A stretch of DNA of 64,000 bases from Dehalococcoidia bacterium (GCA_965222025.1 CBDCTI010000007.1:555339-619338); one strand, 5' to 3'; shown: positions 11,969 to 48,169, counted from the first letter of the stretch. Program-made: numbers and translations. Notes: generated by a model from the letters alone, not told the origin.

Positions 11969-11970
11969 CC

Positions 11971-27152: not shown

Positions 27153-27896
27153 TCAGGAAGGCCGCACCACTATCTCGTGGGCAACGTTGAACCCCATGGA
27201 GACCTGTCCCTGGTCCGTGGCGACTTCCATCACCCCAAGGAAGGGCGTCGCATCTGCCACGGTGATTTCCGCCTCCGGAACGATCTGCGAGTCCGCCAGG
27301 AACTTCAGGAGCTGCGGGTCCTCCTCTGGCACACGTTCCACGATGTAGGCCAGCCCGGTCACGGCGTAATCAAGGGTGAGGGAGTTGGGCGGCGTCTTCG
27401 GCTCTCCAGTGCCGGGAATGGGGCGGCCGTACGGGGAGCGCCGCGGATGGCCCAGCCGCTCCACCAGTTTCTCCATCAGTTGCGGCGACATGCCGTGCTC
27501 CAGTCGGTGCGCCTCATTGTGGGCCTGGTGCAACTCCATGCCCAGCAGCCGCACTACCATCCACTCGGCCAGACGGTGCCGCCGGGCAATGTCCTCACCG
27601 CCTTCCATACCCTGTCGCGTCAGGCGGATTCGCTTGTCTCCGCCAATCTCCACCAGGTGCTGCCGCGCCATGCGACGTATCATCCCCGCCACCGACGGCA
27701 CGGACGTACCCAGTCCCTCGGTGGGCGGGAGGCGACGCAGTGCATCGGTCAGCTGGGTAATGGTGGGTGCCTCGTCGTCTTCCCAGAGCCTGTAGAGACA
27801 CAGCAGATAGTTCTCGGTCCCGGGAGACAGCCTCTCGTTCTGAGCATCTCCGTTTTCCGAATCCTTTTGCGCAGCAGCCCTTCTGGGACGTGGCAT
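27153..27896 (-). CDS. DtxR/MntR/IdeR family metal-dependent transcriptional regulator with C-terminal SH3/FeoA-like domain
   Basis: ENYLLCLYRL..., the IARRHRLAEWMVVRLLGMELHQAHNEAHRLEH metal-site region and a C-terminal small barrel. The start is taken at 27896. Confidence 0.85.
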   Translation of the reverse strand: MPRPRRAAAQKDSENGDAQNERLSPGTENYLLCLYRLWEDDEAPTITQLTDALRRLPPTEGLGTSVPSVAGMIRRMARQHLVEIGGDKRIRLTRQGMEGGEDIARRHRLAEWMVVRLLGMELHQAHNEAHRLEHGMSPQLMEKLVERLGHPRRSPYGRPIPGTGEPKTPPNSLTLDYAVTGLAYIVERVPEEDPQLLKFLADSQIVPEAEITVADATPFLGVMEVATDQGQVSMGFNVAHEIVVRPS

Positions 27897-28020
27897 CTGG
27901 GCCCTCGTTGCTTGAAATCCCCCTCCAGCGCAGTTGCACAGCCGGCAGGGCACGCTGAAAAGTATAGCAGAACAAGGGGAGGAGACCGTGGAATGCAGGG
28001 GAGCGGTAATCTGAGGCGGG

Positions 28021-29226: not shown

Positions 29227-29422
29227 GAATGGAAACGATTATTGCGTCTGTCAATAGGAGCGATTGCGGCCCAGTGTAAAGACTGCCCATTGGCCTGTCA
29301 ATCATTCGGGTTACTTCGTAATTTGTTTCCACACACCGTGTCCGATTACCCTTGTTTTTGCTGAATGCAAGGTGTTCCGAGCGATTCGTGTATACTTATT
29401 CAGACGAATCGCTTGCACATAA

Positions 29423-31066
29423 ATGCACCCCCTTTCCATCTGTTTTCTCTCGAACATTCCGATGAAGAACCCTTTCGCCATCGCCGCTCGGATCGGCCCT
29501 GCGGCGATGAACGCTCCCCCGGTCATACTGATACCGGCCCTTCTGGTGGGCGCAGCCCTGTTGCTGCCGCCGGTATATCTGCTGGTCCGCTCTTTGGGTG
29601 GAGGCAGCGAGCTCTGGGACCTGCTGTTTCGTCCCAGGGTGGCAAGCATCCTGGGGCGAACGCTGCTGCTGGTGGCTGCCGTAACCGCCGGCTCTGTGAT
29701 CATAGCCCTGCCCCTGGCCTGGCTGACGGTCCGGACGGACCTGCCCCTGCGTCGCACCTGGGCGGTGTTGACCTCCCTTCCGCTGGTGATCCCCAGTTAC
29801 GTGGCCGGCTTCGTAGTCGTCGTTGCCCTAGGGCCGCGGGGAATGCTGCAGGGCGCCCTCGAGGGCCCCTTCGGAATCGAGCGGCTACCCAGCATCTACG
29901 GCTTTGCTGGAGCGATGCTGACCCTGACCTTCCTCAGCTACCCCTACGTGACGCTGACACTTCGCGCCGCGCTGGAGCGCATGGATCCCGCACTCGAAGA
30001 GTCGGCAAGGGGGCTGGGGCTGGGGCCCGTTGCAACGTTCTTCCGCGTGGTGACTCCCCTGCTCCGGCCAGCCGTCGGTGCTGGCGCACTGCTGGTGGGG
30101 CTCTACACACTGAGTGATTTCGGCGCTGTCTCGCTCCTTCGATACGAGACCTTTACCTGGGCAATATTCAGCCAGTACGAGTCTTCCCTGGATCGCACCC
30201 TTGGCGCAGGAATGTCCTTGGTGTTGGTGGCCCTGGCCTTAGCGCTGGTGGCAGCGGAATTCGTCAGCAGGGGCCGCAGCCGCTACTACTCAGCGTCTTC
30301 CGGCACCGTTCGCCCTGCTTCCATCGTGCGGCTGGGACGATGGCGGTGGCCTGCCGTGGGGCTGTGCGGCGCACTGACCGCACTGGCCCTCGGACTCCCC
30401 GTGGGCATCCTCGTCTACTGGGTGGTACGGGGAGTCTTGGCCGGGGAGCCGCTGGATCCGCTGTGGACCGCGACGCGCAACTCCGTTTACATCTCTGCCT
30501 TGGCGGCCCTGGCGGCCACCGCCGCAGCGTTGCCCGTCGGCCTGCTGTCGGTGAGGCATCCCGGTGTATTGAGCGGCTTACTGGAGCGGCTGGGCTATGT
30601 CAGCTTCGCTTTGCCTGGCATCGCCATCGCCCTGGCGCTGGTGTTCTTCGGCGCCAACTACGTCCCCTTCATCTACCAGACCATCGGCTTGCTCCTGCTG
30701 GGGTACATGGCGCTGTTTCTTTCGCCCGCACTCGGTGCCGTCAGAGCCACGTTGCTACAGATCAATCCCAGCCTGGAAGAGGCCGCCCGGGGGCTGGGCC
30801 GGTCCCCCTTGCGAGCCTTCGCCTCCGTGACGTTGCCCGTCTCTCGCCCAGGAATAGTTGCCGGTGCATCGCTGGTGTTCCTGCTTACCATGAAGGAACT
30901 GCCAGCCACGCTCATACTTAGCCCCACCGGCTTCACCACCTTGGCGACCTCGGTGTGGTCGTACACCTCGGAAGCCTTCTTCGCCCGGGCCGCCATGCCC
31001 TCCCTGCTACTGATCATCGTATCCGGCGTCCCGCTGGCCCTGCTCATGCTCCGCGAGCGCCGCTGA
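29423..31066 (+). CDS. Fe3+-type ABC transporter permease, duplicated two-domain form (FbpB-like)
   Basis: 547 aa with two tandem MetI-like permease halves (12 or more TM). An alternative start lies at 29462. Confidence 0.8.
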   Translation: MHPLSICFLSNIPMKNPFAIAARIGPAAMNAPPVILIPALLVGAALLLPPVYLLVRSLGGGSELWDLLFRPRVASILGRTLLLVAAVTAGSVIIALPLAWLTVRTDLPLRRTWAVLTSLPLVIPSYVAGFVVVVALGPRGMLQGALEGPFGIERLPSIYGFAGAMLTLTFLSYPYVTLTLRAALERMDPALEESARGLGLGPVATFFRVVTPLLRPAVGAGALLVGLYTLSDFGAVSLLRYETFTWAIFSQYESSLDRTLGAGMSLVLVALALALVAAEFVSRGRSRYYSASSGTVRPASIVRLGRWRWPAVGLCGALTALALGLPVGILVYWVVRGVLAGEPLDPLWTATRNSVYISALAALAATAAALPVGLLSVRHPGVLSGLLERLGYVSFALPGIAIALALVFFGANYVPFIYQTIGLLLLGYMALFLSPALGAVRATLLQINPSLEEAARGLGRSPLRAFASVTLPVSRPGIVAGASLVFLLTMKELPATLILSPTGFTTLATSVWSYTSEAFFARAAMPSLLLIIVSGVPLALLMLRERR

Positions 31067-37529: not shown

Positions 37530-37914
37530 CCGTCCGAACCGCGCGACCGACAGCCCGCGTTTGCATGTATCAAGGAACGCACCCACACGATTCTCAACTA
37601 CCTTCTCGGTCTAAAACGAAGAGTGGCGCACCAACTGCCGGCCGGTCGAGTGTACGCCTCAATTCATGCGGAAGCTTCGGCCCTTCAGCCCATGCCAGGC
37701 AACGCCTGGAACCCTGAGTTCGGTCTTGAAGGGCAGTAGAGGGCACGGCGAACCCATGGACGAAACCTTCAAACTACTCGGGGGGTCCAGTCGTCTCAGC
37801 AGCCATCCGTAGCTGGACTACGCCGCCGGGCAAAGGTATCATTATGGGCAGTCAGAATATCGCCGAACCGCCACCACCGATGGCGTAAGACGGCGCACTG
37901 CAGGAGAGTAACCA

Positions 37915-38298
37915 ATGAAGAAAGTCACCATGGGCGACATTCCCCGGACCCCGGCTGACATGGCCCCCCTCGGTAGCGGCGGACTGATGACTGGGAGCCA
38001 GGTCTGGCGCCAGTCCATCCTGAACGCCGAAGACTCAAACAACTTCAACTTCGCCATCGTCGCCTTTGACGCCGGCTCTCGCAACAAGTTCCACAAGCAC
38101 TCCGGCGACCAGATCCTGGTAGTCACCGAGGGCAAGGGCAAGGTTGCCTCAGACGATGAGGTTCTCGAAGTCGCTGAAGGCGACGTCGTTGTCATTCCGG
38201 CCGGTGAGAACCACTGGCACGGTGCTCCCGACGACACGGGCATGGCCCACATCACCATCACCGTCAAGGGCAGCCAGACCGAGCAGACCGAGGCCTAG
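37915..38298 (+). CDS. cupin domain protein
   Basis: Cupin motifs HKHSGDQILVVTEG and PAGENHWHGA. Confidence 0.8.
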   Translation: MKKVTMGDIPRTPADMAPLGSGGLMTGSQVWRQSILNAEDSNNFNFAIVAFDAGSRNKFHKHSGDQILVVTEGKGKVASDDEVLEVAEGDVVVIPAGENHWHGAPDDTGMAHITITVKGSQTEQTEA

Positions 38299-38330
38299 TC
38301 CTCACCCAGACCTAGCGCGCACCATACGAA

Positions 38331-38364
38331 CAGCCCCGGAGCTTTCCGGGGCTGTTTCTTTTTG
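38331..38364 (+). terminator. rho-independent terminator
   Basis: 10-bp stem cagccccgga/tccggggctg, loop gctt, then tttcttttt. Confidence 0.85.
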
Positions 38365-38422
38365 AATCGATAAAGTCGCAGATTCTTTTAGTTCACTGTG
38401 CCGGGATGACACCGTCCCGCCG

Positions 38423-39343
38423 TCAGTCGCCCTCCGTCTTGATAGGCTGTGCCGCTGGGGTGATACCCGCCTCGGCGGGAGGCGTGTCGGACGTGACTCG
38501 TGGCTGCCTCTGCCTCAAGGCAACCAGCCTGGACCGCAAATTCGAATAGACCATCACCACCGCAAATACCGACGCCTCCACCAGCACAATGGTGGCCCCA
38601 GACGAAACATCAACGAAGTAGCTCAGGTATATCCCGAAGAAGCCGCAGGCCGCGCCGATTCCTGCGGACAACATCAGCATCCTCGGGAAGCTGTCGGTCA
38701 GCATCCGGGCCGATACCGGCGGTATCACCGTGGCCCCCGCGATGAGCAGCACGCCCAGCACCTGCAGCGACACCACGATGGTCCCCGCCAGCACCAGCGA
38801 GAACATCGCCTCCACCCATCCGGTCGGCACTCCGTAGAACTGGGCCACGTCCCCGTCAAAGGTCGTGAAAAGAAATTGCTTGTAAGCCACGAACAGCACC
38901 AGGGCCGTCCCGAGGGCCACCGCCGCCAACGCCACCAGGTCCCCCGCTGTAACGCCGACAATGTTGCCGAAGAGCGCCGTCTCAAAGTCCCGGGTGAAGC
39001 TCTTGTAGCGACTGATCAGGACAATGCCCATGGCAAAGCTGGCCGTGGTAATAACGCCGATCGCAGCGTCGTAGGCGATCTTCCGTTTCTTCGTCGTCAG
39101 CGTTATCAGCTGTGCGCAGAGAAATCCCCATATCGTCGACCCGATGAGGAAGTTGAACGACATCACGAAGGACACCACGGCGCCACCCAGAACGGCGTGC
39201 GCCAGCCCATGGCCGATGTATGCCATCCGCTTCAGGACAACGTAGACGCCGATGGTTCCGCAGAGTGCCCCGGCGATTATGGCGGCAACCATCCCCCGGA
39301 TGATGAAGGGATAGCCAAATGGCTCCAGGAACGTTTCAAACAT
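38423..39343 (-). CDS. metal ABC transporter permease (TroC/TroD/ZnuB family)
   Basis: ABC-3 family pattern with 8-9 TM segments. The start is taken at MFETFLEPF (39343). The ORF is open to 39373. Confidence 0.85.
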   Translation of the reverse strand: MFETFLEPFGYPFIIRGMVAAIIAGALCGTIGVYVVLKRMAYIGHGLAHAVLGGAVVSFVMSFNFLIGSTIWGFLCAQLITLTTKKRKIAYDAAIGVITTASFAMGIVLISRYKSFTRDFETALFGNIVGVTAGDLVALAAVALGTALVLFVAYKQFLFTTFDGDVAQFYGVPTGWVEAMFSLVLAGTIVVSLQVLGVLLIAGATVIPPVSARMLTDSFPRMLMLSAGIGAACGFFGIYLSYFVDVSSGATIVLVEASVFAVVMVYSNLRSRLVALRQRQPRVTSDTPPAEAGITPAAQPIKTEGD

Positions 39344-40196
39344 GGCTATGGGTATGCCCGGCAGTCTCCGCATCGCCGTTCCCCGCGCCGTTGCGCGCGT
39401 AGCGGTGGGGACTCTCGGCCACTATGGGCATTCCTTCGTAATGGATTACCGGCATGTCCGCGCCGTATGTCTGGCGCAGCACGTAGGGCGTTATTACCTC
39501 GTAGGGCGTGCCTTCAGCCAGTACTCGACCGGCCAGGCACACAAGCCGCGGCAAGTGCACAGCCACGGCGTTGATCTCGTGAGTCGTGATCACTATGGTG
39601 ACGCCCTGGTGGTTGAGGTCATGCAGCAGGTGCATAATGTCGTCGCGAGTCTTGACGTCGACTCCGGACGTCGGTTCGTCCAGCAGTAGCAGCGATGGGC
39701 TGCTGACCAGCGCCCGGGCCAGAAAGGCCCGCTGTTGCTGCCCGCCCGAAAGCTCGCGGATGTGCCGTCCGGCCAGCTCGAGAATTCCCAGCCGGTCCAT
39801 CATGCGGTCGGCCAACTGCTTCTCCTCCTGGCGGAACCACGGGAAGAAGCGGTTCTCCATCGTCCGGCCCATCATCACCACTTCCCGGACGGTTACCGGG
39901 AAGTTCCAGTCGATGGTCTCCAGTTGCGGCACATAGCCGATGCGTGGCCTCTTCTCCGTGACCCTGGCGCCGTTGACCAGCACCTCGCCTTCGTAAACGT
40001 CCACTGCGCCCAGCATCGAGCGCAGCAACGTCGTCTTGCCAGACCCGCTGGGTCCCAGCAGGCCAACAAAGTCCCCCTGCATAATCTGCAGATTGACTCC
40101 CTGTAGTGCCTTCTGTTTCTCGTAGCCGCAAGACAGTCCGTTGATCTCGACCAGCGGAATGCCTCGAACGTGCTCATGGGGTAGGGGATGCAGCAT
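39336..40196 (-). CDS. metal ABC transporter ATP-binding protein (TroB/ZnuC family)
   Basis: GPSGSGKTT, LSGGQQQRAFLARAL and LLLDEPTSGVD. The ends carry His residues (MLHPLPHEH..., ...GHTHSHV). Confidence 0.9.
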   Translation of the reverse strand: MLHPLPHEHVRGIPLVEINGLSCGYEKQKALQGVNLQIMQGDFVGLLGPSGSGKTTLLRSMLGAVDVYEGEVLVNGARVTEKRPRIGYVPQLETIDWNFPVTVREVVMMGRTMENRFFPWFRQEEKQLADRMMDRLGILELAGRHIRELSGGQQQRAFLARALVSSPSLLLLDEPTSGVDVKTRDDIMHLLHDLNHQGVTIVITTHEINAVAVHLPRLVCLAGRVLAEGTPYEVITPYVLRQTYGADMPVIHYEGMPIVAESPHRYARNGAGNGDAETAGHTHSHV

Positions 40197-40199
40197 GTC

Positions 40200-40267
40200 T
40201 TTTCATTCAGCCTTGATTTTCATTCAGCATGGTTTTTCATTCAGCCCTGATTTTCATTCGGCCTTGA
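40200..40267. repeat. 17-bp tandem repeat x4 (ttttcattcagccttga) abutting the ATPase start codon
   Basis: Units at 40200, 40217, 40234 and 40251. The gene ATG is at 40196-40194 on the minus strand. Confidence 0.9.
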
Positions 40268-40337
40268 TCAGATAACGCCTCAAACTTGTGCAGTGCGGTT
40301 CCCGCCAGGTATCAGGTAAATCTCATTCCGCTGACTT

Positions 40338-43300
40338 CTAGTGGTTGTGATGGTGTCCGCCCGGCACGCCGGTCCAATCGGAGGACAATGGCGTGTCGTG
40401 GCCATCGTGATGGCCCTTCTCCTCATGCTCCTGAGCATGCCCGTTGGTGGCGCTCACTAGTTGCGTTGCCACCAACTGGGCATACAGCCCCTGCCGTTCC
40501 AGCAGTTCTTGGTGGTTGCCCTGCTCCACCGCCCCGCCTTGGTCCAGAACCACGATCCGGTCGGCGTTGCGGATGGTCGACAGACGGTGAGCAATGACGA
40601 GGGTGGTTCGCCCCTCCATCAGGTTCTCCAGGGCCTGCCGCAGCTGGCTTTCGCTCACCGCATCCAGGTGCGACGTCGCCTCGTCCAGGATCAGCACGGG
40701 CGCATTCTTCAGCAGGGCCCGAGCGATGGCGACGCGCTGCCGCTGGCCGCCCGAGAGCTGCATTCCCCTCTCACCTACGATGGTGTCGTACCCGTCAGGG
40801 AAGACCGTGATGAAGTCGTGGCAGTTGGCCTGCCGAGCCGCCTCTTCCAGATCGGCCTGCGTGGCTTCGGACCGGCCCAGCATGATATTGTCCCGGATGC
40901 TTGCGTTGAACAGGTAGGTGTCCTGCGACACAAGGGCAATCCGCTGCCGGAGATCATCCAGCTTGAACTCACGGACATCGTGGCCGTCCAGTTCGACCGC
41001 GCCGTGGCCGGGGTCCCAGAACCTCATGGCCAAGTTGGCGCATGTGGTCTTCCCTGCTCCTGAGCGCCCTACAAGCGCGACAGTGTGCCCCGGCTCCACT
41101 TCGAAGCTCACGTCGTGGAGTGCCTGCGGCTCCCCGGGGCCATAGTCGAAGCCCACGCCCGCGAATACTACCGAAGGCGCCGTCTGGTGGCCGTCCGAGT
41201 GGTTGTGGTGGTCGTGGCCGTCGTGCTGCCCGACGCCAGGGCCGTCCGCCACCGGCACGGGCTCATCGTGGATCGCGAAGAGTCTCCGGGAGGCTGCCAG
41301 CGTCTCCATCAACTGCTTCATGGTACGGGCAATGTCCGACACCGGCGCAAACGCAGCCACCGAGAGGACCACGGCTAGGATGAGCTCCGGACGGGAAATA
41401 TTCCCGTTGGTCAGCAGCCAGACTCCCACCGTCAGCACCACCAGCCCTCCCAGCGCGGTCATCGCTTCGATGAACCCGATCTGGAAAGCCCGCTCCTTCA
41501 GGAACCGCAGCTGGAAGTGGGCGAACCGCCAGCTGTTGGCCACCATCTCGGCAGTGCGTGAACGCCCCTGCCCGAAGGCAACGATTTCCCGCATGCCCTG
41601 GATACTGTCCAGCATGTGCGCATGAACGTCGCCCAGCTGGTGCCGCAGTTCCTCGCCGAGCCGCTCCGAGCGCTTCAGTGCGAAGAACGGGCTCAGCGCC
41701 ACGGCCACTAGGAACGGCGCCACTGCTATCGCCATGGGCCACGCGATCACCGCAAGGACTGCCACCACCACGCCTGGCACCACCACGGCGGTGAAAGCGG
41801 GAGTGATAGTGTGTGCGAAGAAGAACTCCACCGTCTCCACGTCGCCCCCGACCACGCTCACCAGGTCCCCGGACCGTCGTCGAGTCATGTAGGCCGGTGC
41901 CAGCGGGTCCAGCTTCCGGTAGACATCCACTCGCATTTCCGCCAGCAGACGGTAAGCAAGGTCGTGGGCCACCCAAGACTCCGTCCAGATGAAGAAGGCC
42001 GCAAGGGGTGTCAATACCGCCAGCAGGATCAGTAGCAGCGTCAACTCGCCGCCAGTGATCACCTGCCCCACCAGCAGCGCGCTGACAACGCCCACGCCAA
42101 TGGCCGTTCCGTGATGCGCCACTCCCAGAAGGAAGGTTAATATGAGCTCGTTCCGCCACGGCTTGACCAGTCCCAGCAGCCGCACCCACACGGCGATGAT
42201 GCCCAGCGCCCGTTCGCCCTGTCCGTGCTGGCGTTCGTCTGGCTGATGCTGGGCTGCCGGGGCGGCATGATGATGCCCGTGCCCGTCGTGCGCCGGTTGC
42301 GGCATGAAGGCAGCGGCATCCGGCTGCGGGCCGTGGTTTCCTTCGTCATGAACTTGGGCAGTCAGATGATGCCCGTCGCCGTGGGTGCGATGGTGCGCCC
42401 GCGCACCGTCGTGGTCTTGATTCTCATGATCGCGATGGCCGTCTTGGTCGTGGACACCGCCATGCCGTTCGTGATTCGCCGTATGGTCGGAATGTTGCGT
42501 TTCACCCTGGTCATCGTCGTGATGGGCCTGAGGCGCCTCATGATGATGCCCATGTCCCTGGTGCGCCGGACTGGGAATGAACGCGCTCACATCCAGTTGC
42601 GCGGCCAATGTCTGCGTGGCGGCGCGGCCCTCTTCTGGAGGTCGGTAGTCGAAGTCCAGCCGCTCCTGCTGCTGCGACATCAGGTCGGAGTAAAGACCGC
42701 CGGCCGCGACCAGGTCGCCGTGTGAGCCCGTCTCGACGAGCCGTCCCTCGTCCAGCACTAGGATGCGGTCGGCATTCACCACGCTGGAAAGTCGGTGGGC
42801 GATCCTCAAGGTCGTGCGGCCTTCCATCAACCGGTCCAGGGCCTGTTGAATGACCGCCTCGTTTTCGGCGTCCACATTGGAAAGCGCCTCATCCAGGATC
42901 AGGATGGGAGCGTCCTTCAGCAGTGCCCGCGCAATGGCGATGCGTTGCTTCTGGCCGCCGGAAAGCCGGACGGCCCTCTCACCTACCACCGTCCCGTAGC
43001 CATCGGGCAAGTGGCTGATGAATTCGTGGGCGTTGGCATTCCGGGCTGCCTCCTCCAGTTGTCCCTGGGTTGCGTCGGGATTACCGAAGCGAAGGTTCTC
43101 CGCCACTGTACCGTGGAACAGGTAAGTGTCCTGGGTAACGACCGACAGCTGCTCGCGCAGTTGCGTGAGAGGAATATCTCTCAGTTCGCGCCCGCCCAGT
43201 CTTATTGATCCCTGCTGCGGGTCGAAGAACCTGAGTATCAGCCAGACTATGGTCGACTTCCCGGCCCCGCTGGGACCCACAAGTCCCATCGTCTCACCCT

Positions 43301-44405
43301 CTCGCAAGGTGAACGACAGGTCGTGCAGTGCCGGGCGTCGGCCCTCGCTGTAGGCGTGGCTCACGTTGTCGAAAATCACTTCCGGAGCCAGCGGGCCAAC
43401 AGACTCAGGCGCAGCGCTGTTAGAGGCCTGTCGCTCCGGCTCCTGAACGGATGCCGGCGAGTCCATGATGGCAAATATGCCCTCCGCGGAGGACATCGCC
43501 ATCACGCCATCGTGGTAGAGCTGCACCAGCTCGCGCAGCGGGCGGAAGACCTCCACGCCAAGCATCAACACGATGAGAAGCGCCCTGAGTTCCATGTCCC
43601 CATCGGCCACCCGCACCGCGCCCCACCCTAGGGCAACGGCAGCGCCGCCGGTGATGCCCAAGATGGTCAGGGCGCCCGTCGCCGCATTTGCCGCCAGCAC
43701 GCCCATGGTGGTGCGAAACAGTTCGCGGGCCCGTTCGGCCAGCAGTTCTCCGCGTACCCGACTCTGTCCGAAAGCCTTGAGCGTTGAGAGTCCCTGAACC
43801 GCGTCCAGAAAGTCCGCGCCCAGTGCTCCGTATGCGTCGCGGCGGGCCATGCTCCGCTCCCGGTTCCAGCGATGGAACAGGTTCGGAATGATCAGGGTCA
43901 GAAGAGCGAAGGCCAGGAATATCAGGCCGGTTCGGAAGTCTATCAGCGCCATGAAGATGAAGATCACCACCGGCGCCAGCGCCGCTACGATCATCTGCGG
44001 CAGATATCGGCCGAAGAAGGCCTCGAGACGTTCCACTCCCTCCGCCAGCGACATCAGCGCGTCGCCGGTCCGTGAGGAATCGAAGTATCCCGGCCCGAGC
44101 GCCAGCGAGTGTTCGTACAGGCGCTCCCGCAGCTTCACCTTCACCAGGCTTGCGGTGTGATGGCTCATCACCTCCTGCAGGTACTGCAGGCCACCACGCG
44201 CCACAATCAGCGCCGCCATCCCCACCAGCGGCCATGTCAGAGACTCGAAGGTCGCGTTGCCGCGCACTACCTCCACGATAATCAGCGCGGCCACTGCCAG
44301 CCGCGCCACCCCGGCGGCCACCGCCAGCATCCCCACGATGGCCGAAATTATGATGCGCCAGCGAACGTCACTGGCCAGCGACAATAGCCTCGGGTGCAGA
44401 TACAT
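40338..44405 (-). CDS. fused two-half ABC transporter (TMD-NBD-TMD-NBD), CydD-CydC-like, with His-rich linker, loop and tail
   Basis: 1355 aa. Half 1 has the CydD-like RYLPQM motif, GPSGAGKST and LSGGQKQR. Half 2 has GRSGAGKTT and LSGGQRQR. The ~150-aa His/Asp/Gln-rich linker spans aa ~585-735. GQHDGHDHHNHSDGHQ lies before NBD2. The C-terminal tail is ...KGHHDGHD...GGHHHNH. Confidence 0.85.
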   Translation of the reverse strand: MYLHPRLLSLASDVRWRIIISAIVGMLAVAAGVARLAVAALIIVEVVRGNATFESLTWPLVGMAALIVARGGLQYLQEVMSHHTASLVKVKLRERLYEHSLALGPGYFDSSRTGDALMSLAEGVERLEAFFGRYLPQMIVAALAPVVIFIFMALIDFRTGLIFLAFALLTLIIPNLFHRWNRERSMARRDAYGALGADFLDAVQGLSTLKAFGQSRVRGELLAERARELFRTTMGVLAANAATGALTILGITGGAAVALGWGAVRVADGDMELRALLIVLMLGVEVFRPLRELVQLYHDGVMAMSSAEGIFAIMDSPASVQEPERQASNSAAPESVGPLAPEVIFDNVSHAYSEGRRPALHDLSFTLREGETMGLVGPSGAGKSTIVWLILRFFDPQQGSIRLGGRELRDIPLTQLREQLSVVTQDTYLFHGTVAENLRFGNPDATQGQLEEAARNANAHEFISHLPDGYGTVVGERAVRLSGGQKQRIAIARALLKDAPILILDEALSNVDAENEAVIQQALDRLMEGRTTLRIAHRLSSVVNADRILVLDEGRLVETGSHGDLVAAGGLYSDLMSQQQERLDFDYRPPEEGRAATQTLAAQLDVSAFIPSPAHQGHGHHHEAPQAHHDDDQGETQHSDHTANHERHGGVHDQDGHRDHENQDHDGARAHHRTHGDGHHLTAQVHDEGNHGPQPDAAAFMPQPAHDGHGHHHAAPAAQHQPDERQHGQGERALGIIAVWVRLLGLVKPWRNELILTFLLGVAHHGTAIGVGVVSALLVGQVITGGELTLLLILLAVLTPLAAFFIWTESWVAHDLAYRLLAEMRVDVYRKLDPLAPAYMTRRRSGDLVSVVGGDVETVEFFFAHTITPAFTAVVVPGVVVAVLAVIAWPMAIAVAPFLVAVALSPFFALKRSERLGEELRHQLGDVHAHMLDSIQGMREIVAFGQGRSRTAEMVANSWRFAHFQLRFLKERAFQIGFIEAMTALGGLVVLTVGVWLLTNGNISRPELILAVVLSVAAFAPVSDIARTMKQLMETLAASRRLFAIHDEPVPVADGPGVGQHDGHDHHNHSDGHQTAPSVVFAGVGFDYGPGEPQALHDVSFEVEPGHTVALVGRSGAGKTTCANLAMRFWDPGHGAVELDGHDVREFKLDDLRQRIALVSQDTYLFNASIRDNIMLGRSEATQADLEEAARQANCHDFITVFPDGYDTIVGERGMQLSGGQRQRVAIARALLKNAPVLILDEATSHLDAVSESQLRQALENLMEGRTTLVIAHRLSTIRNADRIVVLDQGGAVEQGNHQELLERQGLYAQLVATQLVSATNGHAQEHEEKGHHDGHDTPLSSDWTGVPGGHHHNH

Positions 44406-44468
44406 GGCTACATACCCTCCGTTACAGGGTGGCTGAGAGGAGCTTGTCCCTGGAATTGTCCGGATGGA

Positions 44469-45476
44469 CTACTGGGAGTAAACGGCACCGCTCTGTCCTT
44501 CGAATACTAGGCTTACGTCCACGTCGTCAAAGGCATCGGCGTTGCCGCCCAATGCCGGAATCATGATTCTCATGTTGCCGAGCATCAGTCCCAGGTACGA
44601 ATGGTCCGGGTCTCCTGGCACTCCAGGTAGATCGTCGTCCGACAACTGGTCGACGAAAGTTGTGTTGCCTTCCCGTGCGATGATTTCCAATACCTGGCTG
44701 GGAAACTCTTCCGACCCGAAGATCGCCGGCAGTCCCAGTTCCTTTACCTGGTCTATCAGCTCCGCCATTTCCCGGGCCGAAGGTTCGGCAAAGTCCGAGG
44801 GCTGCACCGCGCCGATGACTTCCATCCCGTAGGTAAGTGCAAAGTAGGCCCACGAGTCGTGATAGGTCACCAGCTTGCGGTTCTCGGGCGGTATGGTGGC
44901 CACGGACTCACGGATCGCCGCGTCCATCGCGGCTACACGCTCTCTGAAGGACTCCAGGTTTTCCTCATAGTAGCTGGCGTTTTCGGGGTCAAGGGACGCC
45001 AGCTCCGCTTGGGCCAACTCGGCATATTTCAGCCCCAGTGTCGGGTCCGGCCAGAGATGCGGGTTGGGATGACCCTCAGACTCCGGGAAACTGAAGTCAA
45101 ACTGCCACTGCTCACGGGTGATTGCCCGGTCTCCCAGCCGCAATATCGGCGTGGTGTCCTTTTTGTTGGCCTCCGCAAGCTGCAGGGTCGGCTCCTCCAG
45201 GAACAGCCCGTTGGCGATGATCAAATCGGCGTCTACCATCAGCTTGGCCAGTGACGGCTGAGGCTCGAAGATGTGCGAGTTCACCCCTTCCGGCACCGCT
45301 CCCTCCAGTTCTATGCGATCGCCCCCAATGTTCTCCACAATGCTTGTTATGGGCGACACCGTGGTGACTACCCTGAGCTTTCCGCTTTCAACTTCCGAGC
45401 CACCGCAAGACACGGCGCTCAGAAGCAATGCCAGTATGCAAATAGTGAGACCGAAGACGGGAAAACGCTTAGTCAA
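44469..45476 (-). CDS. metal ABC transporter substrate-binding lipoprotein (TroA/ZnuA cluster A-I family)
   Basis: TTG start at 45476, with GGGGA 9 nt upstream. Lipobox LLSAVSCGG. Candidate metal ligands are NSHIFEP, NPHLWPDP, TYHDSWAYF and DDL. Confidence 0.85.
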   Translation of the reverse strand: MTKRFPVFGLTICILALLLSAVSCGGSEVESGKLRVVTTVSPITSIVENIGGDRIELEGAVPEGVNSHIFEPQPSLAKLMVDADLIIANGLFLEEPTLQLAEANKKDTTPILRLGDRAITREQWQFDFSFPESEGHPNPHLWPDPTLGLKYAELAQAELASLDPENASYYEENLESFRERVAAMDAAIRESVATIPPENRKLVTYHDSWAYFALTYGMEVIGAVQPSDFAEPSAREMAELIDQVKELGLPAIFGSEEFPSQVLEIIAREGNTTFVDQLSDDDLPGVPGDPDHSYLGLMLGNMRIMIPALGGNADAFDDVDVSLVFEGQSGAVYSQ

Positions 45477-45490
45477 TCCTGGTATCCCCT

Positions 45491-45634
45491 GATTAATTCC
45501 AGCCCGATTAATTCCAACCCGGTTAATTCCAGCCCGGTTAATTTCAGCCCGGTTAATTCCAGCCCGGTTAATTCCAGCCCGGTTAATTCCAGCCTTGTTA
45601 ATTCCAGCCTGATTAATTCCAGCCTGCTGAATCC
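45491..45634. repeat. 15-bp tandem repeat, ~9.5 copies (ggttaattccagccc), between the Fur-like gene and the binding-protein gene
   Basis: Units every 15 bp from 45491. Copies 3, 5 and 6 are identical and the edge copies are degenerate. Confidence 0.92.
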
Positions 45635-45649
45635 TGCGATTCGGAACCC

Positions 45650-46123
45650 TTACTCCGCATCCTCGCTGGTTCCCTGGCAACCGGCACAAACACCAGTTAC
45701 TGAAAAATGCTCCAGGTCTGGCACAAAACCAAACTCCCGGACCAGCGTCTCCCGGAACTCTTCCAGGTAATGCGGGCTGAGGTTGAAGGCACCGCTGCAC
45801 ACGCGACATACCATGTGATGATGCAGGTCTCCGGGCATTGTCAGCTCATAATGCAGCCGGTCCCCGATCTCGACCTCGGTCACCACTCCCGCGTCGCGGA
45901 ACAGGCGCAATGTGCGGTAGACCGTCGCAATGTCCATGTACTGGTAGGCCTCTCGCGCCCGCCGGAACACCTCATCCACGCCCATATGTCCCCCGCCTTC
46001 CGCTACGGCGGAAAGCACGAGGACCCGCTGGGGCGTAATCCTGTGCCCCTGCATGCGAAGCCTGTCCAGCGCCTGTTCGTGATGCAAAGCGCAACTCGCA
46101 GTAATTGCAATTGGTTGCCACAA
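45650..46123 (-). CDS. Fur family transcriptional regulator
   Basis: RITPQRVLVLSAV... winged helix, HHHMVCRVC and GVCAGC cysteine pairs. Confidence 0.85.
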   Translation of the reverse strand: MWQPIAITASCALHHEQALDRLRMQGHRITPQRVLVLSAVAEGGGHMGVDEVFRRAREAYQYMDIATVYRTLRLFRDAGVVTEVEIGDRLHYELTMPGDLHHHMVCRVCSGAFNLSPHYLEEFRETLVREFGFVPDLEHFSVTGVCAGCQGTSEDAE

Positions 46124-46176
46124 CGGATGGTAGCAGGAATAGCCCCAAAGTCAATACAAGGAGCGGAGGGAACCAG

Positions 46177-46374
46177 GGTCATTAGATTATCGGCAAACCC
46201 GTTGACCCTGAGCCTGTCGAAGGGCCTATCCTGAGCTTGTCGAAGGGCCTGTCCTGAGCTTGTCGAAGGGCCTATCCTGAGCTTGTCGAAGGGTCGTTCG
46301 TTCATGGTTCGACAAGCTCACCACCAACGGACCGGCAAGAATGGCCAGGCTTGTAATCGATAATCGAATGACCC
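46177..46374. mobile_element. MITE-like palindromic element, copy A (four internal 23-bp subrepeats)
   Basis: Terminal inverted repeat ggtcattagattatcg / cgataatcgaatgacc. The core hairpin is gagcttgtcgaa...ttcgacaagctc. The 23-bp unit cctgagcttgtcgaagggcctgt occurs four times. Confidence 0.75.
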
Positions 46375-46389
46375 TGCGGAGGGAATGGC

Positions 46390-47238
46390 CTAGGCAGTGT
46401 CGTCAAAATAACTACTTGATGGTAAGGTACTGGGGAAAGTGTGAGAGTGCGGGGTGGGACTATGACGGCAGCGCATCGACGTCACGATATAGCGGACCAG
46501 GTTTGGGAACGATTGCGACCCTTTTTGCCTGGAGACGGAGGCAAAAGAGGTAGGCCGGCTCGAGACAACCGGTTGTTTTTGAACGCGGTGTTCTGGATTC
46601 TGCGTACCGGTGCTCCATGGCGGGACCTGCCACCGGATTACGGGGACTGGAAAAACACCCACCGGCGCTTCTGTCGCTGGCGGGACCGGGGTGTCTGGGA
46701 GCAACTGCTGGATGCGGTCGTCGACGATCCGGACTTTGAGTGGCTGATGATAGACGCCAGCTACATCAAGGTTCATCCCCACGGGACTGGGGCACGGGGA
46801 GGCAATCAAGCCATAGGCCGCACAAAAGGGGGCTGAACAGCAAACTGCACCTGGCCGTTGATGCCCATGGAATGCCGGTTCGGTTGGTTTTGACCGGGGG
46901 CACGGTGGCGGACTGCACCCAAGCCCATTCGCTGACGGCTGACCTGCCGGCCCAGTATCTGCTGGCCGACCGGGGCTACGACACCAACTCCATCGTGGCG
47001 GAGGCCGAGGCCCGGGGAATGGAACCGGTAATACCCCCGAGGAGCCACCGCAAGGAACCCCGGAACTACGACCGGGCATTGTATAAACTGCGTCATCTAG
47101 TGGAGAACTCATTTCTGGACTTCAAGCAATGGCGTGCCGTAGCGACTCGATATGCCAAAAACGAAGCGTCCTTCCTGGCCATCTGCCAAATCAGGGCACT
47201 GGCAATCTGGGCCAGATTATTTTGACGACACACCCTAG
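46390..47238 (+). mobile_element. IS5-family (IS427-like) insertion sequence, ~0.84 kb
   Basis: The inverted repeat ggcagtgtcgtcaaaataa (46394-) matches the reverse complement of ttattttgacgacacacc (-47234). CTAG flanks both sides (46390-46393 and 47235-47238). Confidence 0.85.
46462..47225 (+). CDS. IS5-family transposase, two frames joined by a probable -1 frameshift
   Basis: OrfA (HDIADQVWERLRPFLP...RTGAPWRDLP) ends at 46836. OrfB (the DDE part, LLADRGYD...) is in the -1 frame. The slippery run a-aaa-ggg is at 46824-46830, and reading continues as KRGLNSKLHLAVD. Confidence 0.8.
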
Positions 47239-47320
47239 GGCGTGTGGACATTCAGGGTTGAGTTGGAATTTTGTGTTGTGCCTCAATCAGACTTCGGTAC
47301 GCTCAGCCCGACGTATGGCG

Positions 47321-47614
47321 TCATAGAGGCTCGCTCTCGGCCAAAGCGACTGCTTTCTCCCTGATATGGCGGGGTACTTCTCTGCTTTCTGCACAAATAA
47401 GCAGGGCGTCTCTGGCCCGCCCTACTGCAATGATTTTTCGAGCCGGATATACTCGACGAGTCAGGGCTGCGGAATAGTCACGGCCCCAATCTTCCGCGAT
47501 GTATCTGGCAACCGTCTCGTTCAATAGGTCAAGGTCGCAAAGCTCTCCGAAGAATGTAACGAAGCACTCTTTCCCAATTGACTGGAGGTATCGGTTCAAC
47601 TGCTGGTCGTTCAC
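47321..47614 (-). CDS. hypothetical protein (97 aa)
   Basis: The GTG at 47614 is preceded by AAGGAG. No family recognised. The ORF is open to 47680. Confidence 0.5.
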   Translation of the reverse strand: MNDQQLNRYLQSIGKECFVTFFGELCDLDLLNETVARYIAEDWGRDYSAALTRRVYPARKIIAVGRARDALLICAESREVPRHIREKAVALAESEPL

Positions 47615-47722
47615 ATGCACTCCTTTGCTTAGGGTCTGTGGACATTCAGCAATGCATAGTGAGATGCACGGTGCGCACATTGGGACGCGACGAGGGTGCC
47701 GGCGTCCAGATCAGAGCAGCCC

Positions 47723-48169
47723 TCAGTGAATGCAGAAATCGTTATACGGAGTCTCCAAAGTCACAGCGGCATAAATCTCGAAGGCCGCGAGGGTCACACA
47801 ACACCTGATTTCAATCGCCCGGACTTTCATGTTGCGGACGATCCTCTGCTTCTCTTTAAATTCGGCGTTATGGTCTTGACCAAGTTTCTTTAAGGTCATG
47901 GGACCTAACCCCAGGTCTGCTATCGTCATCCGGGAGGGCAAGGGTGCCGTCTTAGTGGTGCCGGTGCGATGTTGCCTAATCCGTGTCAGGATGTCCTGCT
48001 TGGAATGGGGGCCGACGATACCAACGTACATCGGGTCGTTGCCCTCATAAAAGACGTACGCGCCGCTGTGTATGTGCAGGCTATCTAAGGTCTCCTCACA
48101 GTATGGGGTGCTTGCCTCGAGCTCCTTCAGGAGAGGTTTTAACTGATGATGGATTTCTTCTTCAAACAT
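47723..48169 (-). CDS. GIY-YIG nuclease domain protein
   Basis: 148 aa. GAYVFY...PMYVGI matches the GIY...YIG pair. A conserved Arg follows (LTRIRQHR), then a Glu (AFEIYAA) and YN near the C-terminus. Confidence 0.7.
   Translation of the reverse strand: MFEEEIHHQLKPLLKELEASTPYCEETLDSLHIHSGAYVFYEGNDPMYVGIVGPHSKQDILTRIRQHRTGTTKTAPLPSRMTIADLGLGPMTLKKLGQDHNAEFKEKQRIVRNMKVRAIEIRCCVTLAAFEIYAAVTLETPYNDFCIH

What the first reader, a model, noticed from the sequence alone, without database searches (positions are those of the whole stretch)
38423..46123. Operon-level oddity: an exporter-fold ABC transporter embedded inside a Fur-controlled TroA-type metal importer operon
What the sequence shows: the genes run same-strand with short gaps in this order.
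1. Fur-family regulator.
2. 15-bp repeat array.
3. Cluster A-I binding lipoprotein.
4. Fused CydDC-like transporter.
5. 17-bp repeat array.
6. Importer ATPase.
7. Importer permease.

A type II importer set (binding protein, one ATPase, one permease) is thus split by a full type IV (exporter-fold) transporter.

Established knowledge: exporter-fold ABC proteins such as IrtAB and YbtPQ can import metallophores, and CydDC exports thiols.

Inference: this may be a coupled module. One option is export of a small chelator or reductant plus import of the metal. Another is two parallel uptake routes under one Fur-like switch. I do not recall this combination being described.

The window also holds a second, separate Zur/ZnuABC-type locus. 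That argues the two systems are not simply redundant.
Basis: inference. Interest (0 to 1): 0.7.

Follow-up and report, generated by a model that had tools for sequence, protein, structure and literature searches.

The report
Metal-uptake operon carrying histidine-rich CydDC-like transporter
A conserved, self-regulated five-gene operon of SAR202-type Dehalococcoidia joins a zinc/manganese-type metal importer to a fused CydDC-like "exporter-type" ABC transporter with long histidine-rich cytoplasmic segments, a pairing that looks functional but whose substrate is unknown.

Summary
On the minus strand, 46154-38328, one promoter and an operator-like palindrome precede five genes:
- a Fur-family gene;
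- a TroA/AztC-type binding protein whose predicted metal ligands are His3Asp;
- a 1355-aa fused CydD-CydC-like ABC transporter;
- an importer ATPase;
- an ABC-3 permease.

The order holds in 44 of 56 species-level Dehalococcoidia loci, including a marine SAR202 genome. The promoter and operator are conserved too, and some relatives have only 13-19 bp between genes.

The fused transporter resembles CydDC. Its membrane domains best match CydD and CydC, and both heme-ligating histidines are kept. It is never near cydAB.

It carries a His-rich cytoplasmic linker (29 His here, up to 43), a His-rich insert and a terminal HHHxH tail. A linker motif, AFxPQPAHxGxGHHHH, occurs only in the clade derived from the operon insertion.

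Two other lineages of fused CydDC-like genes sit next to FecCD-type or NikA/CntA-type importers.

I read this as a metal-starvation module. The transporter most likely exports a small thiol-type ligand or reductant, or else imports a chelate. The metal, probably zinc, and the transport direction are untested.

The tandem repeats vary between strains and are incidental. I rate it a new variant of a known kind, of moderate to high interest.

The parts
46127..46154 (-). Sigma-70-like promoter, TTGACT-16-TACCAT with TG before the -10
   Evidence: It is the only promoter-like site on the minus strand in 37800-46500. The -35 and extended -10 are conserved in register in 36 of the 38 relatives aligned.
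46107..46118 (-). Operator-like palindrome GCAACCAATTGC (GCAA-N4-TTGC, extended to TTGCAA), 8-9 nt after the -10
   Evidence: It occurs once per locus, upstream of the fur-family gene, in about 35 relatives and almost nowhere else in 1.2 Mb of loci. The window holds 4 matches to the core against 1.2 expected.
45650..46087 (-). Fur-family regulator (145 aa from TTG 46087; the ORF extends to 46123)
   Evidence: PF01475, E 3e-20. The best solved relative is S. coelicolor Nur 3eyy at 76.8 bits, then PerR, Fur and Zur. L001 has a 145-aa gene call.
45493..45624 (.). 15-bp tandem array (8.8 copies), strain-variable and incidental
   Evidence: 3.7 copies in the 98%-identical L001.
44469..45476 (-). 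Cluster A-I (ZnuA/TroA/AztC-type) binding protein, 335 aa, with a signal peptide and Cys; predicted ligands His-His-His-Asp
   Evidence: PF01297. Alignment to 5hx7 and 1pq4 shows the third ligand is His, as in Synechocystis ZnuA, not Glu as in MntA. The ligands are invariant in all embedded loci.
40338..44405 (-). Fused CydD-CydC-like type IV (exporter-fold) ABC transporter, 1355 aa
   Evidence: 2x PF00664 and 2x PF00005. TMD1 best matches E. coli CydD (7zd5_D, 77.8 bits) and TMD2 best matches CydC (7zd5_C, 69.7 bits). The heme-ligand equivalents Y297/H298 and H814 are conserved.
42201..42653 (-). Linker between NBD1 and TMD2, inferred cytoplasmic and His-rich (29 His). Two copies of AF[IM]P[QS]PAHxGHGHHH flank a His/Asp/Glu-rich stretch.
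   Evidence: The motif is found only in the embedded-derived clade. Linker length varies from 63 to 208 aa.
41178..41234 (-). His-rich insert (GQHDGHDHHNHSDGH) between TMD2 and NBD2
   Evidence: variable but His-containing in homologues.
40341..40433 (-). His-rich C-terminal tail ending GGHHHNH
   Evidence: Nearly every full-length family member, including the stand-alone ones, ends in a short His-rich tail. The tail is absent from the nearest outgroup clusters.
40200..40268 (.). 17-bp tandem array (4.1 copies), strain-variable and incidental
   Evidence: 7.7 copies in L001. L002 has a 19-bp gap at this junction.
39336..40196 (-). Importer-type ABC ATPase, 286 aa, with C-terminal GHTHSHV
   Evidence: PF00005. 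Best NCBIfam hits are MntA(Deinococcus) and AztA, both below cut-off.
38423..39373 (-). ABC-3 (type II importer) permease, 316 aa; overlaps the ATPase gene by 38 bp
   Evidence: PF00950, E 3e-60. Best NCBIfam hit is AztB, below cut-off.
38328..38357 (.). 13-bp GC-rich hairpin between the permease gene and the convergent cupin gene; the likely 3' boundary
   Evidence: The T-run is on the plus strand only, so termination of the minus-strand operon here is inferred.

Best explanation
The locus is one autoregulated, metal-responsive operon of SAR202-type Dehalococcoidia. A Fur-family repressor probably binds the GCAA-N4-TTGC palindrome that overlaps the transcription start. When its metal is scarce it lets go (inferred). 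The cell then makes three things together: a TroA/AztC-type binding protein, its type II importer (ATPase plus ABC-3 permease), and a fused CydDC-family ABC transporter.

The fused transporter keeps the membrane-cavity histidines of CydDC. My best guess is that it works like CydDC and exports a small thiol-type reductant or ligand that helps the binding protein capture the metal, probably Zn(II). Its cytoplasmic His-rich linker, insert and tail would bind incoming metal and tune or shut off the transporter.

Shown: gene content, conservation, promoter and operator, His-rich anatomy, CydDC-like membrane domains.
Inferred: repression logic, metal identity, export direction, the role of the His-rich segments.

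My confidence by layer: operon and metal regulation about 0.85; true functional coupling about 0.55; ligand or reductant export about 0.3.
For: Gene content.

One transcription unit:
- A single promoter and no internal terminator-like site on the coding strand.
- Promoter and operator conserved in register in 36 of the 38 relatives aligned, with the palindrome specific to this spot.
- Gene order present in 44 of 56 species-level loci and in SAR202 Io17-Chloro-G6.
- Gaps of 13-19 bp in L002.

Binding protein: ligands His3Asp are invariant.

CydDC likeness: TMD1 best matches CydD and TMD2 best matches CydC. H312D/Y311D and H85C are conserved (PMC10374445).

Transporter evolution:
- Membrane-domain His residues (82, 83, 298, 765, 814, 865, 928) are invariant in 51 family members.
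- Stand-alone members are basal and embedded ones derived. The AFxPQPAH...HHHH motif is found only in the embedded-derived clade.
- The His-rich decoration is absent from the nearest outgroup clusters.

Recurrence: fused CydDC-like genes lie directly after a FecCD-type importer (L069, L075) and a NikA/CntA-like importer (L071).

Thiol hint: relatives sit next to gamma-glutamyltranspeptidases and M19 dipeptidases, which are glutathione-breakdown enzymes.

Iron: a DtxR-family repressor with an Fe(III)-type ABC importer elsewhere in the window suggests iron has its own regulator.
Against: - No experiment or expression data exist, and all genomes are uncultured MAGs.
- The flanking genes are also syntenic, so conservation may partly reflect inheritance within one clade.
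- The transporter family works alone in basal lineages, and its membrane-domain residues did not change on embedding.
- The parts can be separated. L019 has the transporter elsewhere. L038, L044 and L052 keep only the transporter and the ATPase. L018, L024 and L031 lack the regulator.
- No ligand-biosynthesis genes are in the window.
- CydDC is now argued to be a heme exporter rather than a thiol exporter (PMC10374445).
- These cells probably lack an outer membrane, so an exported small ligand would diffuse away.
- Metal specificity of the regulator cannot be read from sequence.
Confidence: 0.4

Rival explanations
1. Parallel uptake route. The fused transporter is an exporter-fold importer, as YbtPQ and IrtAB are. 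It would bring in a metal chelate, a metal-thiolate/histidine complex or heme. The cytoplasmic His-rich linker would take the metal off the ligand, playing the part that the siderophore-interaction domain plays in IrtAB.
For: - The type IV fold is compatible with import (PMC7002159, PMC11779899).
- Co-expression with an importer under a starvation-type repressor.
- The conserved bis-His site in the cavity could ligate a metal centre.
- The His-rich segments lie at the cytoplasmic exit.
- Outgroup relatives pair with chelate importers.
Against: - No chelator biosynthesis genes nearby.
- By membrane-domain similarity, YbtPQ (6p6i) ranks far below CydDC.
- No SID-like domain is present.
- A second importer beside a complete one gives no obvious reason for a strict operon.
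Confidence: 0.2
2. Passenger gene. An ordinary CydDC-type heme or thiol exporter, serving respiration or envelope redox, was inserted once into an importer operon. It has simply been inherited there, with no functional link to the metal importer.
For: - The family predates the insertion and works alone in basal lineages.
- Membrane-domain residues are unchanged.
- The whole neighbourhood is syntenic.
- The components can be lost or moved.
- Public annotation calls it CydC or CydCD.
Against: - It has been kept between the binding-protein and ATPase genes across divergence down to 75% (transporter) and 60% (binding protein) identity to the window's copies, with tight junctions.
- The linker motif and His-rich expansion coincide with embedding.
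- Pairing with other metal importers arose independently.
- No cydAB lies near any locus.
Confidence: 0.2
3. Metal efflux or delivery. The His-rich cytoplasmic segments collect Zn, Ni or Co and feed it to the bis-His cavity for ATP-driven export. This would act as a safety valve against overshoot by the importer, or would metallate extracytoplasmic proteins.
For: Cytoplasmic His-rich loops and tails are typical of CDF and P1B-type metal exporters (established knowledge). There are many invariant His residues in the membrane domains. The His-rich tail is universal in the family.
Against: - The operator position implies repression by the metal-loaded regulator, hence expression when metal is scarce. 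Efflux would then be futile (inference).
- I know of no precedent for a CydDC-like metal-ion pump.
- The outgroup relatives beside chelate importers lack His-rich segments.
Confidence: 0.1

Closest known systems
CydDC (E. coli, mycobacteria; fused CydCD in Streptomyces)
   Same: Type IV ABC fold. The membrane domains are most similar to CydD (N-half) and CydC (C-half). The heme-ligating His/Tyr residues (H85C, Y311D, H312D) are conserved. Both ATP sites are canonical. Public annotation is CydC/CydCD.
   Different: - Never next to cydAB.
- The N-half falls below the NCBIfam CydD cut-off.
- The arginines that bind the heme propionates are replaced (S810, H865).
- It carries a 63-208-aa His-rich linker, a His-rich insert and an HHHxH tail.
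- It is embedded in a metal importer operon behind a Fur-family gene.
M. avium subsp. paratuberculosis mpt cluster (mptABC, IrtAB-like, plus mptDEF) under Zur (PMC4298942)
   Same: An exporter-fold ABC transporter sits directly beside a metal importer and is induced by metal (zinc) starvation through a Fur-family repressor. Its function is still unknown there too.
   Different: The exporter-fold part is IrtAB-like, not CydDC-like. The importer is ECF/cobalt-type, not cluster A-I. The cluster lies beside a siderophore-like biosynthesis cluster. There are no His-rich linkers, and the organism is an actinobacterium.
YbtPQ and IrtAB (exporter-fold metallophore importers); C. diphtheriae cdtPQ-sidAB (Zur and DtxR regulated, PMC6711530)
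   Same: Type IV fold used in metal acquisition under Fur, Zur or DtxR control. IrtA has a cytoplasmic accessory domain that handles the metal.
   Different: Those are linked to NRPS/PKS metallophore synthesis, which is absent here. By membrane-domain similarity YbtPQ ranks well below CydDC. The accessory part here is a disordered poly-His segment, not a flavin reductase domain.
AztABCD, ZnuABC and TroABCD cluster A-I importers
   Same: Binding protein with His3Asp ligands, one ATPase, one ABC-3 permease, and a metal-responsive repressor gene in the operon (as in tro and adc).
   Different: No known member has a complete second ABC transporter between the binding-protein and ATPase genes. All NCBIfam equivalog scores are below cut-off. 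There is no His-rich loop in the binding protein.
Nur, the nickel-responsive Fur homologue of S. coelicolor (PMC2691836)
   Same: It is the best solved relative of the regulator. The operator half-sites resemble the Nur box TTGCAA. The M-site histidines (H33 and the HxH before CxxC) are conserved.
   Different: The Ni-site residues H70 and H72 are Glu here. The spacer is 4 bp, not 5. The controlled importer is cluster A-I rather than Nik-type.

Membership tests
CydDC | Membrane domains most similar to CydD (first half) and CydC (second half) | tested here: met
   TMD1 vs PDB: 7zd5_D CydD at 77.8 bits; the next non-CydD hit is Sav1866 at 48.8. TMD2: 7zd5_C CydC at 69.7 against Sav1866 at 55.1.
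CydDC | NCBIfam curated cut-offs (TIGR02857 CydD, TIGR02868 CydC, PRK11174/PRK11160) | tested here: inconclusive
   N-half: CydD 419.1, below the cut-off of 435. C-half: CydC 357.7, above 329.05, but the MsbA model scores higher (405.4, below its own cut-off of 602). E. coli-type models fall far below cut-off (350.9/684 and 321.3/630).
CydDC | Heme axial ligands H85(CydC) and H312(CydD), plus Y311(CydD) | tested here: met
   They align to H814, H298 and Y297. H298 and H814 are invariant in all 51 family members. Y297 is invariant in the derived clade and is Gly in 4 of 6 basal members. Residue roles are taken from PMC10374445.
CydDC | Arginines binding the heme propionates (R81 and R136 of CydC) | tested here: not met
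   They align to S810 and H865. R77 lies outside the alignment.
CydDC | Genetic linkage to cytochrome bd genes cydAB | tested here: not met
   No CydA-like GRQPW motif (recalled from memory) in a real ORF in the 64-kb window or in the 66 loci fetched by then, 1.29 Mb in total. Pfam of neighbours shows none. The rest of each genome was not searched.
CydDC | Needed for cytochrome bd maturation; exports heme and/or thiols | not testable with these tools
   Needs genetics or biochemistry.
Cluster A-I metal ABC importer (ZnuABC/TroABCD/AztABC) | PF01297 binding protein, PF00950 permease and an ABC ATPase encoded together | tested here: met
Cluster A-I metal ABC importer (ZnuABC/TroABCD/AztABC) | Four metal ligands; His3(+Asp) marks the Zn/TroA type, His2GluAsp the Mn/Fe type | tested here: met
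   H-H-H-D by alignment to 5hx7 and 1pq4; invariant in all embedded loci. The metal actually bound was not tested.
Cluster A-I metal ABC importer (ZnuABC/TroABCD/AztABC) | NCBIfam equivalog cut-offs (AztC/AztA/AztB, MntC/MntA, ZnuA/ZnuB) | tested here: not met
   AztC 178/350, MntA 212/400, AztB 185/280, ZnuA 69/268.
Fur family; Zur, Nur or Fur subtypes | Fur-family domain with two CxxC motifs | tested here: met
   PF01475 at 72.8 bits. CRVC and CAGC are in the sequence.
Fur family; Zur, Nur or Fur subtypes | Nur: Ni-site H70, H72, H126 and a 6-5-6 TTGCAA box | tested here: not met
   H70 and H72 align to Glu, while H126 is conserved (PMC2691836). The operator has TTGCAA-like half-sites but a 4-bp spacer.
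Fur family; Zur, Nur or Fur subtypes | Zur or Fur equivalog scores | tested here: not met
   Best is Bacillus-type Fur at 68.7/220; Zur scores 31.2/167.
Fur family; Zur, Nur or Fur subtypes | Metal-dependent binding to the operator | not testable with these tools
   Needs EMSA or footprinting with Zn, Ni, Co, Mn and Fe.
Exporter-fold metallophore importers (YbtPQ, IrtAB) | Type IV fold plus linkage to metallophore synthesis or a cytoplasmic siderophore-interaction domain | tested here: not met
   The fold is met (PF00664). No NRPS, PKS, NIS or opine synthase was found among the ORFs scanned in the window, and there is no SID domain. 6p6i scores 32.8 and 28.8 bits on the membrane domains.

The most novel reading that the evidence does not exclude
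Fused CydDC-family transporters may be an unrecognised, recurrent accessory of binding-protein-dependent metal importers. They are found beside ZnuA/TroA-type, FecCD-type and NikA/CntA-type importers. In SAR202-type Dehalococcoidia the accessory has gained a cytoplasmic poly-histidine metal-acceptor or sensor domain (up to 43 His, with a conserved AFxPQPAHxGxGHHHH motif). That domain could couple it, perhaps physically through the importer ATPase that stays with it after the permease is lost, to the type II importer. If so, CydDC-like proteins would have a role in trace-metal acquisition separate from cytochrome bd assembly.
Probability: 0.2. Interest if true: 0.8.

Novelty: new variant of a known kind. 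Interest (0 to 1): 0.55.

Why it matters
SAR202-type Dehalococcoidia are abundant and uncultured, and their trace-metal biology is essentially unknown.

Public annotation files this transporter as CydC/CydCD, a 'thiol reductant exporter'. Its context, regulation and histidine-rich anatomy instead point to metal acquisition. If the coupling is real, it extends the short list of exporter-fold ABC proteins used for metal uptake. It would also give CydDC-like proteins a second physiological role.

The locus offers several things that can be tested directly:
- a regulator and its operator;
- a poly-His linker whose metal binding can be measured;
- natural variants that lack the importer parts.

The conserved promoter and operator also give a handle for predicting this regulator's regulon in MAGs.

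Tried and rejected
1. Apparent replacement of the binding protein. My first synteny run gave only 38-50% identity for it, which suggested a replaced gene. That was my error: the query started at 45475 and was out of frame. With the correct start (45476), identity is 60-76%, a normal orthologue.

2. Tandem arrays as functional operon parts. Rejected: copy number differs in a 98%-identical strain, the arrays are absent in others, and similar arrays are scattered through the window.

3. Regulator as Nur. Rejected as membership: the Ni-site is not conserved and the spacer differs. I keep it as the nearest solved relative.

4. Regulator as Zur or Fur. It cannot be assigned.

5. cydAB linkage. None found.

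6. Metallophore biosynthesis nearby. None in the 64-kb window among the ORFs scanned. About ten small ORFs were not scanned.

7. The operator upstream of stand-alone or ATPase-only copies. Not found. The matches in L048 and L049 lie inside a coding region.

8. Full-length PDB searches. These were uninformative because the nucleotide-binding domains dominate the score, so I repeated them with the membrane domains alone (then 35, 36).

9. Structure prediction. Not attempted: every family member exceeds the 1200-aa limit, and half-models would not show the inter-half His pair.

10. Exact look-ups of the window protein and of P0089. Nothing found.

11. Metagenome scan for relatives of P0232. It gave only one close relative (L075), so the FecCD pairing rests on two contigs.

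Full report
**1. What is there**

The window has about 60% G+C. All close relatives of the fused transporter come from Dehalococcoidia MAGs. Some of these are titled SAR202, and public names for the protein are 'thiol reductant ABC exporter subunit CydC' or 'CydCD'.

Five genes lie head to tail on the minus strand:
- a Fur-family gene: the ORF is 45650-46123, and the likely start is TTG 46087, giving the 145 aa called in the 98%-identical relative L001;
- a ZnuA-family binding protein, 44469-45476, with a signal peptide containing a Cys;
- a 1355-aa protein, 40338-44405, with two ABC_membrane and two ABC_tran domains;
- an ABC ATPase, 39336-40196;
- an ABC-3 permease, 38423-39373, which overlaps the ATPase gene by 38 bp.

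The 446-aa ORF listed for the binding protein is an artefact. It reads back through the 15-bp repeat array.

Tandem Repeats Finder confirms the 15-bp and 17-bp arrays, and a third 23-bp array upstream of the regulator gene.

**2. The repeats are incidental**

- In L001 the same three sites hold 3.7, 7.7 and 10.7 copies, against 8.8, 4.1 and 3.8 here.
- In L002 the junctions around the fused transporter are only 13 and 19 bp long.
- Comparable short arrays occur at four other places in the window.

They are strain-variable intergenic repeats of this genome, not parts of the operon.

**3. One transcription unit with a conserved operator**

The consensus scan finds one promoter-like site on the coding strand in 8.7 kb: TTGACT-16-TACCAT with an upstream TG, at 46154-46127. 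It finds no terminator-like site on that strand between the genes.

I aligned the region upstream of the regulator gene in 38 relatives. In 36 of them the following align in register:
- the -35 box and an extended -10;
- 8-9 nt further on, a palindrome GCAA-N4-TTGC, whose right half reads TTGCAA.

The extended pattern used in that scan has 50 matches in 1.2 Mb of fetched loci. About 35 of them lie at this exact position. In the window the core occurs 4 times against 1.2 expected.

A site over the transcription start is the usual place for a repressor. Autoregulation and co-repression of the downstream genes are therefore inferred, not shown. A 13-bp GC-rich hairpin (38328-38357), shared with the convergent cupin gene, probably marks the 3' end.

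**4. Conservation**

A scan of one genome per GTDB species returned 56 family loci, all from Dehalococcoidia or Chloroflexota. They fall into three groups:

| Group | Loci | Arrangement |
|---|---|---|
| Embedded | 44 | Transporter between binding-protein gene and ATPase-permease genes (some cut by contig ends) |
| ATPase-only | 4 (L038, L043, L044, L052) | Transporter plus importer-type ATPase only |
| Stand-alone | 8 | Transporter alone, in unrelated contexts |

Further details:
- SAR202 cluster bacterium Io17-Chloro-G6 has the full operon.
- Three embedded loci (L018, L024, L031) lack the regulator gene. L052 retains a fragment of it just upstream of the transporter, the mark of a deletion.
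- A distance tree puts six of the eight stand-alone copies at the base. The embedded copies form one derived clade, and the ATPase-only loci and L019 are nested inside it. One insertion followed by vertical descent and a few secondary losses fits best.
- Identity to the window's copies falls to about 75% for the transporter and 60% for the binding protein, and the order is still kept.

Caveat: the flanking genes (MFS, esterase, cupin) are conserved too. Synteny by itself is weak evidence of coupling.

Correction: my first run used an out-of-frame query for the binding protein and seemed to show a replaced gene. The corrected alignment shows ordinary orthologues.

**5. The importer**

The binding protein aligns to solved cluster A-I proteins, and its four ligand positions read His, His, His, Asp. 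The third position is His, as in Synechocystis ZnuA, where B. anthracis MntA has Glu. All embedded loci share these residues.

By established knowledge, this set marks the Zn/TroA/AztC type rather than the Mn/Fe type. Zinc is therefore the best guess, but TroA-like proteins also take Mn and Fe. No NCBIfam equivalog cut-off is reached for any importer component.

**6. The regulator**

It is a Fur-family protein with no decisive subtype score.

- Its best solved relative is S. coelicolor Nur (76.8 bits), ahead of PerR (66.6), a Fur (59.2) and S. coelicolor Zur (57.7).
- The operator half-sites recall the Nur box tTGCaa-N5-ttGCAA (PMC2691836).
- However, the Ni-site histidines H70 and H72 align to glutamates, and the spacer is 4 bp, not 5. 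It is not a Nur by those criteria.

The window also encodes a DtxR-family repressor beside an Fe(III)-type ABC importer. That makes it less likely that this Fur-family protein is the main iron sensor (inference).

**7. The second locus**

At 8949-13606 on the plus strand lie another Fur-family gene, a 773-aa binding protein, an ATPase and an ABC-3 permease.

The binding protein is AztC-like, with an AztD zinc-chaperone domain inserted (residues 202-569, 114.7 bits) and an acidic, His-rich loop. It is a strong zinc candidate.

The inference drawn from it, that the two systems are not redundant, is weak, because paired zinc importers are known.

**8. The fused transporter**

*CydDC likeness.* Full-length comparisons are swamped by the nucleotide-binding domains. 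With the membrane domains alone:
- the first half best matches E. coli CydD (77.8 bits; next non-CydD is Sav1866 at 48.8);
- the second half best matches CydC (69.7 against 55.1).

Split into halves, the N-half scores just under the NCBIfam CydD cut-off (419 against 435). The C-half passes the CydC cut-off (358 against 329).

*Heme-site residues.* The residues that ligate heme iron in E. coli CydDC (H85 of CydC, H312 and Y311 of CydD; PMC10374445) align to H814, H298 and Y297. The propionate-binding R81 and R136 align to Ser and His. Seven membrane-domain histidines are invariant in all 51 family members, stand-alone ones included. Only 19 mostly conservative positions separate the basal copies from the derived ones. 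The substrate site probably did not change when the gene entered the operon.

*No cydAB link.* No CydA-like motif occurs in a real ORF in the window or in any locus fetched by then (the motif is from memory).

*Verdict on family.* It is a CydDC-like subfamily, not a demonstrated CydDC.

**9. The histidine-rich decoration**

Three segments are His-rich:
- the linker between NBD1 and TMD2 (29 His in about 160 residues here);
- an insert before NBD2;
- the C-terminal tail (GGHHHNH).

All three are cytoplasmic if the topology is that of CydDC. That topology is assumed from homology, not tested.

The importer ATPase also ends in a His-containing tail, which is longer in L038.

Across the family:
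- a terminal His-rich tail is nearly universal;
- the linker ranges from 63 to 208 residues and holds 2 to 43 His;
- the motif AF[IMV]PQPAH-x-G-x-GH(G)HHH occurs in one to three copies only in the embedded clade and its derivatives, and is missing from the six basal stand-alone proteins.

The whole family collapses into one 50%-identity cluster. The nearest other clusters (40-46% identity) are also fused proteins of about 1200 aa, but they lack His-rich linkers and tails. The decoration is specific to this family, and its elaboration coincides with embedding.

**10. Recurrence elsewhere**

I looked at the context of six of these outgroup clusters.
- *FecCD type.* One transporter gene overlaps the end of a FecCD-permease plus ATPase pair (L069). 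A 71%-identical relative from another metagenome (L075) shows three Peripla_BP_2 binding proteins, FecCD, the ATPase and then the fused transporter.
- *NikA/CntA type.* Another follows, after 84 bp, a complete importer whose binding protein scores best against NikA and CntA models (L071).
- *No importer.* The other four have no adjacent importer.
- *Glutathione-breakdown neighbours.* One basal family member is flanked by two gamma-glutamyltranspeptidases. One outgroup sits beside four M19 dipeptidases. Both enzyme types break down glutathione. This is a hint only.

Three different importer classes joined to related fused CydDC-like genes is the strongest argument that the pairing is functional. 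It rests on few loci.

**11. How it most likely works**

*Shown:* anatomy, conservation, promoter and operator, CydDC-like cavity residues, the family-specific His-rich segments.

*Inferred:* the regulator represses when metal-loaded, so all four transport genes are made together under metal shortage.

Given that logic, an acquisition role for the fused transporter fits better than efflux.

I favour export of a small thiol-type ligand or reductant, the classical CydDC activity, which would help the binding protein acquire the metal. The His-rich segments would sense or accept cytoplasmic metal and tune the pump.

I hold this loosely, at about 0.3 for that step. The rivals are:
- import of a metal complex, in the manner of YbtPQ or IrtAB;
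- a passenger gene with an ordinary CydDC role;
- metal efflux or delivery to extracytoplasmic proteins.

The ATPase-only variants, in which an intact importer-type ATPase stays with the transporter after the binding protein and permease are gone, remain unexplained. They may mean that the missing parts are encoded elsewhere.

**12. Comparison with what is known, and novelty**

Full-text searches found no description of a CydDC-like transporter inside a ZnuA/TroA-type operon, and nothing on metal transport in SAR202.

Near precedents exist for the general idea:
- the zinc- and Zur-regulated mptABC (IrtAB-like) beside mptDEF in M. avium paratuberculosis;
- Zur-regulated cdtPQ-sidAB next to an ABC importer in C. 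diphtheriae.

I therefore class this as a new variant of a known kind, with a distinctive poly-His anatomy and a possibly wider pattern. It merits follow-up.

Noticed in passing
window 9647-11968 (+), with 8949-9407 and 11971-13606: The second metal locus encodes a 773-aa AztC-like binding protein. An AztD zinc-chaperone beta-propeller is inserted between its two lobes (residues 202-569, 114.7 bits), followed by an acidic, His-rich loop. It amounts to a binding protein with a built-in chaperone.
   Followed up: partly
window 9408-9646: An AT-rich 240-bp spacer between the second Fur-family gene and its binding-protein gene carries several copies of TTGATAC. These may be that regulator's boxes. 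They are unlike the GCAA-N4-TTGC operator of the first locus.
   Followed up: no
window 45493-45624, 40200-40268, 46207-46293; also 186-239, 4701-4766, 62411-62482: Short intergenic tandem arrays (15-26 bp units) whose copy number differs from a 98%-identical relative (L001). They could serve as strain markers.
   Followed up: partly
window 62674-63269 and 46207-46340: A 249-bp unit repeated 2.4 times shares the CCTGAGCTTGTCGAAGGG core with the 23-bp array upstream of the regulator gene. Beside that array lies an inverted copy of the core. This looks like a dispersed repeat or MITE-like element.
   Followed up: no
window about 46390-47900 (ORF 46740-47225 +) and 6313-7788 (-): There are two transposase-bearing insertions. 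The first (DDE_Tnp_1) sits between the esterase gene and the regulator gene and is absent from L001. The esterase-to-regulator gap is 2.2 kb here against 0.47 kb there.
   Followed up: partly
window 27153-31066: A DtxR-family repressor (Fe_dep_repr_C plus FeoA domain) lies beside an ABC ATPase with a TOBE domain and a 547-aa two-domain permease. This is probably an Fe(III) importer with its own regulator.
   Followed up: no
L038, L044, L052 (and L043): locus positions about 7650-12900: In these variant loci the fused transporter is followed by an intact importer-type ATPase with a long His-rich tail. No regulator, binding protein or permease lies within 8 kb. L052 keeps a fragment of the regulator gene at 7837-7974.
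   Followed up: partly
L069 830-6572; L075 1236-10625; L071 2107-10585: Related fused CydDC-like genes (40-46% identity, no His-rich segments) lie directly after a FecCD-type importer, with three Peripla_BP_2 genes in L075, or after a NikA/CntA-like importer.
   Followed up: partly
L066 605-2341 and 12974-14713; L067 11617-16019: Stand-alone relatives of the transporter are flanked by two gamma-glutamyltranspeptidase genes (L066) or by four Peptidase_M19 dipeptidase genes (L067). Both enzyme types break down glutathione.
   Followed up: no
L024 6101-6898; also L018 and L031: In three otherwise complete operons the regulator gene is missing. In L024 its place is taken by two small unrelated ORFs, one a predicted membrane protein with a repeated QQHNHD motif.
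   Followed up: partly
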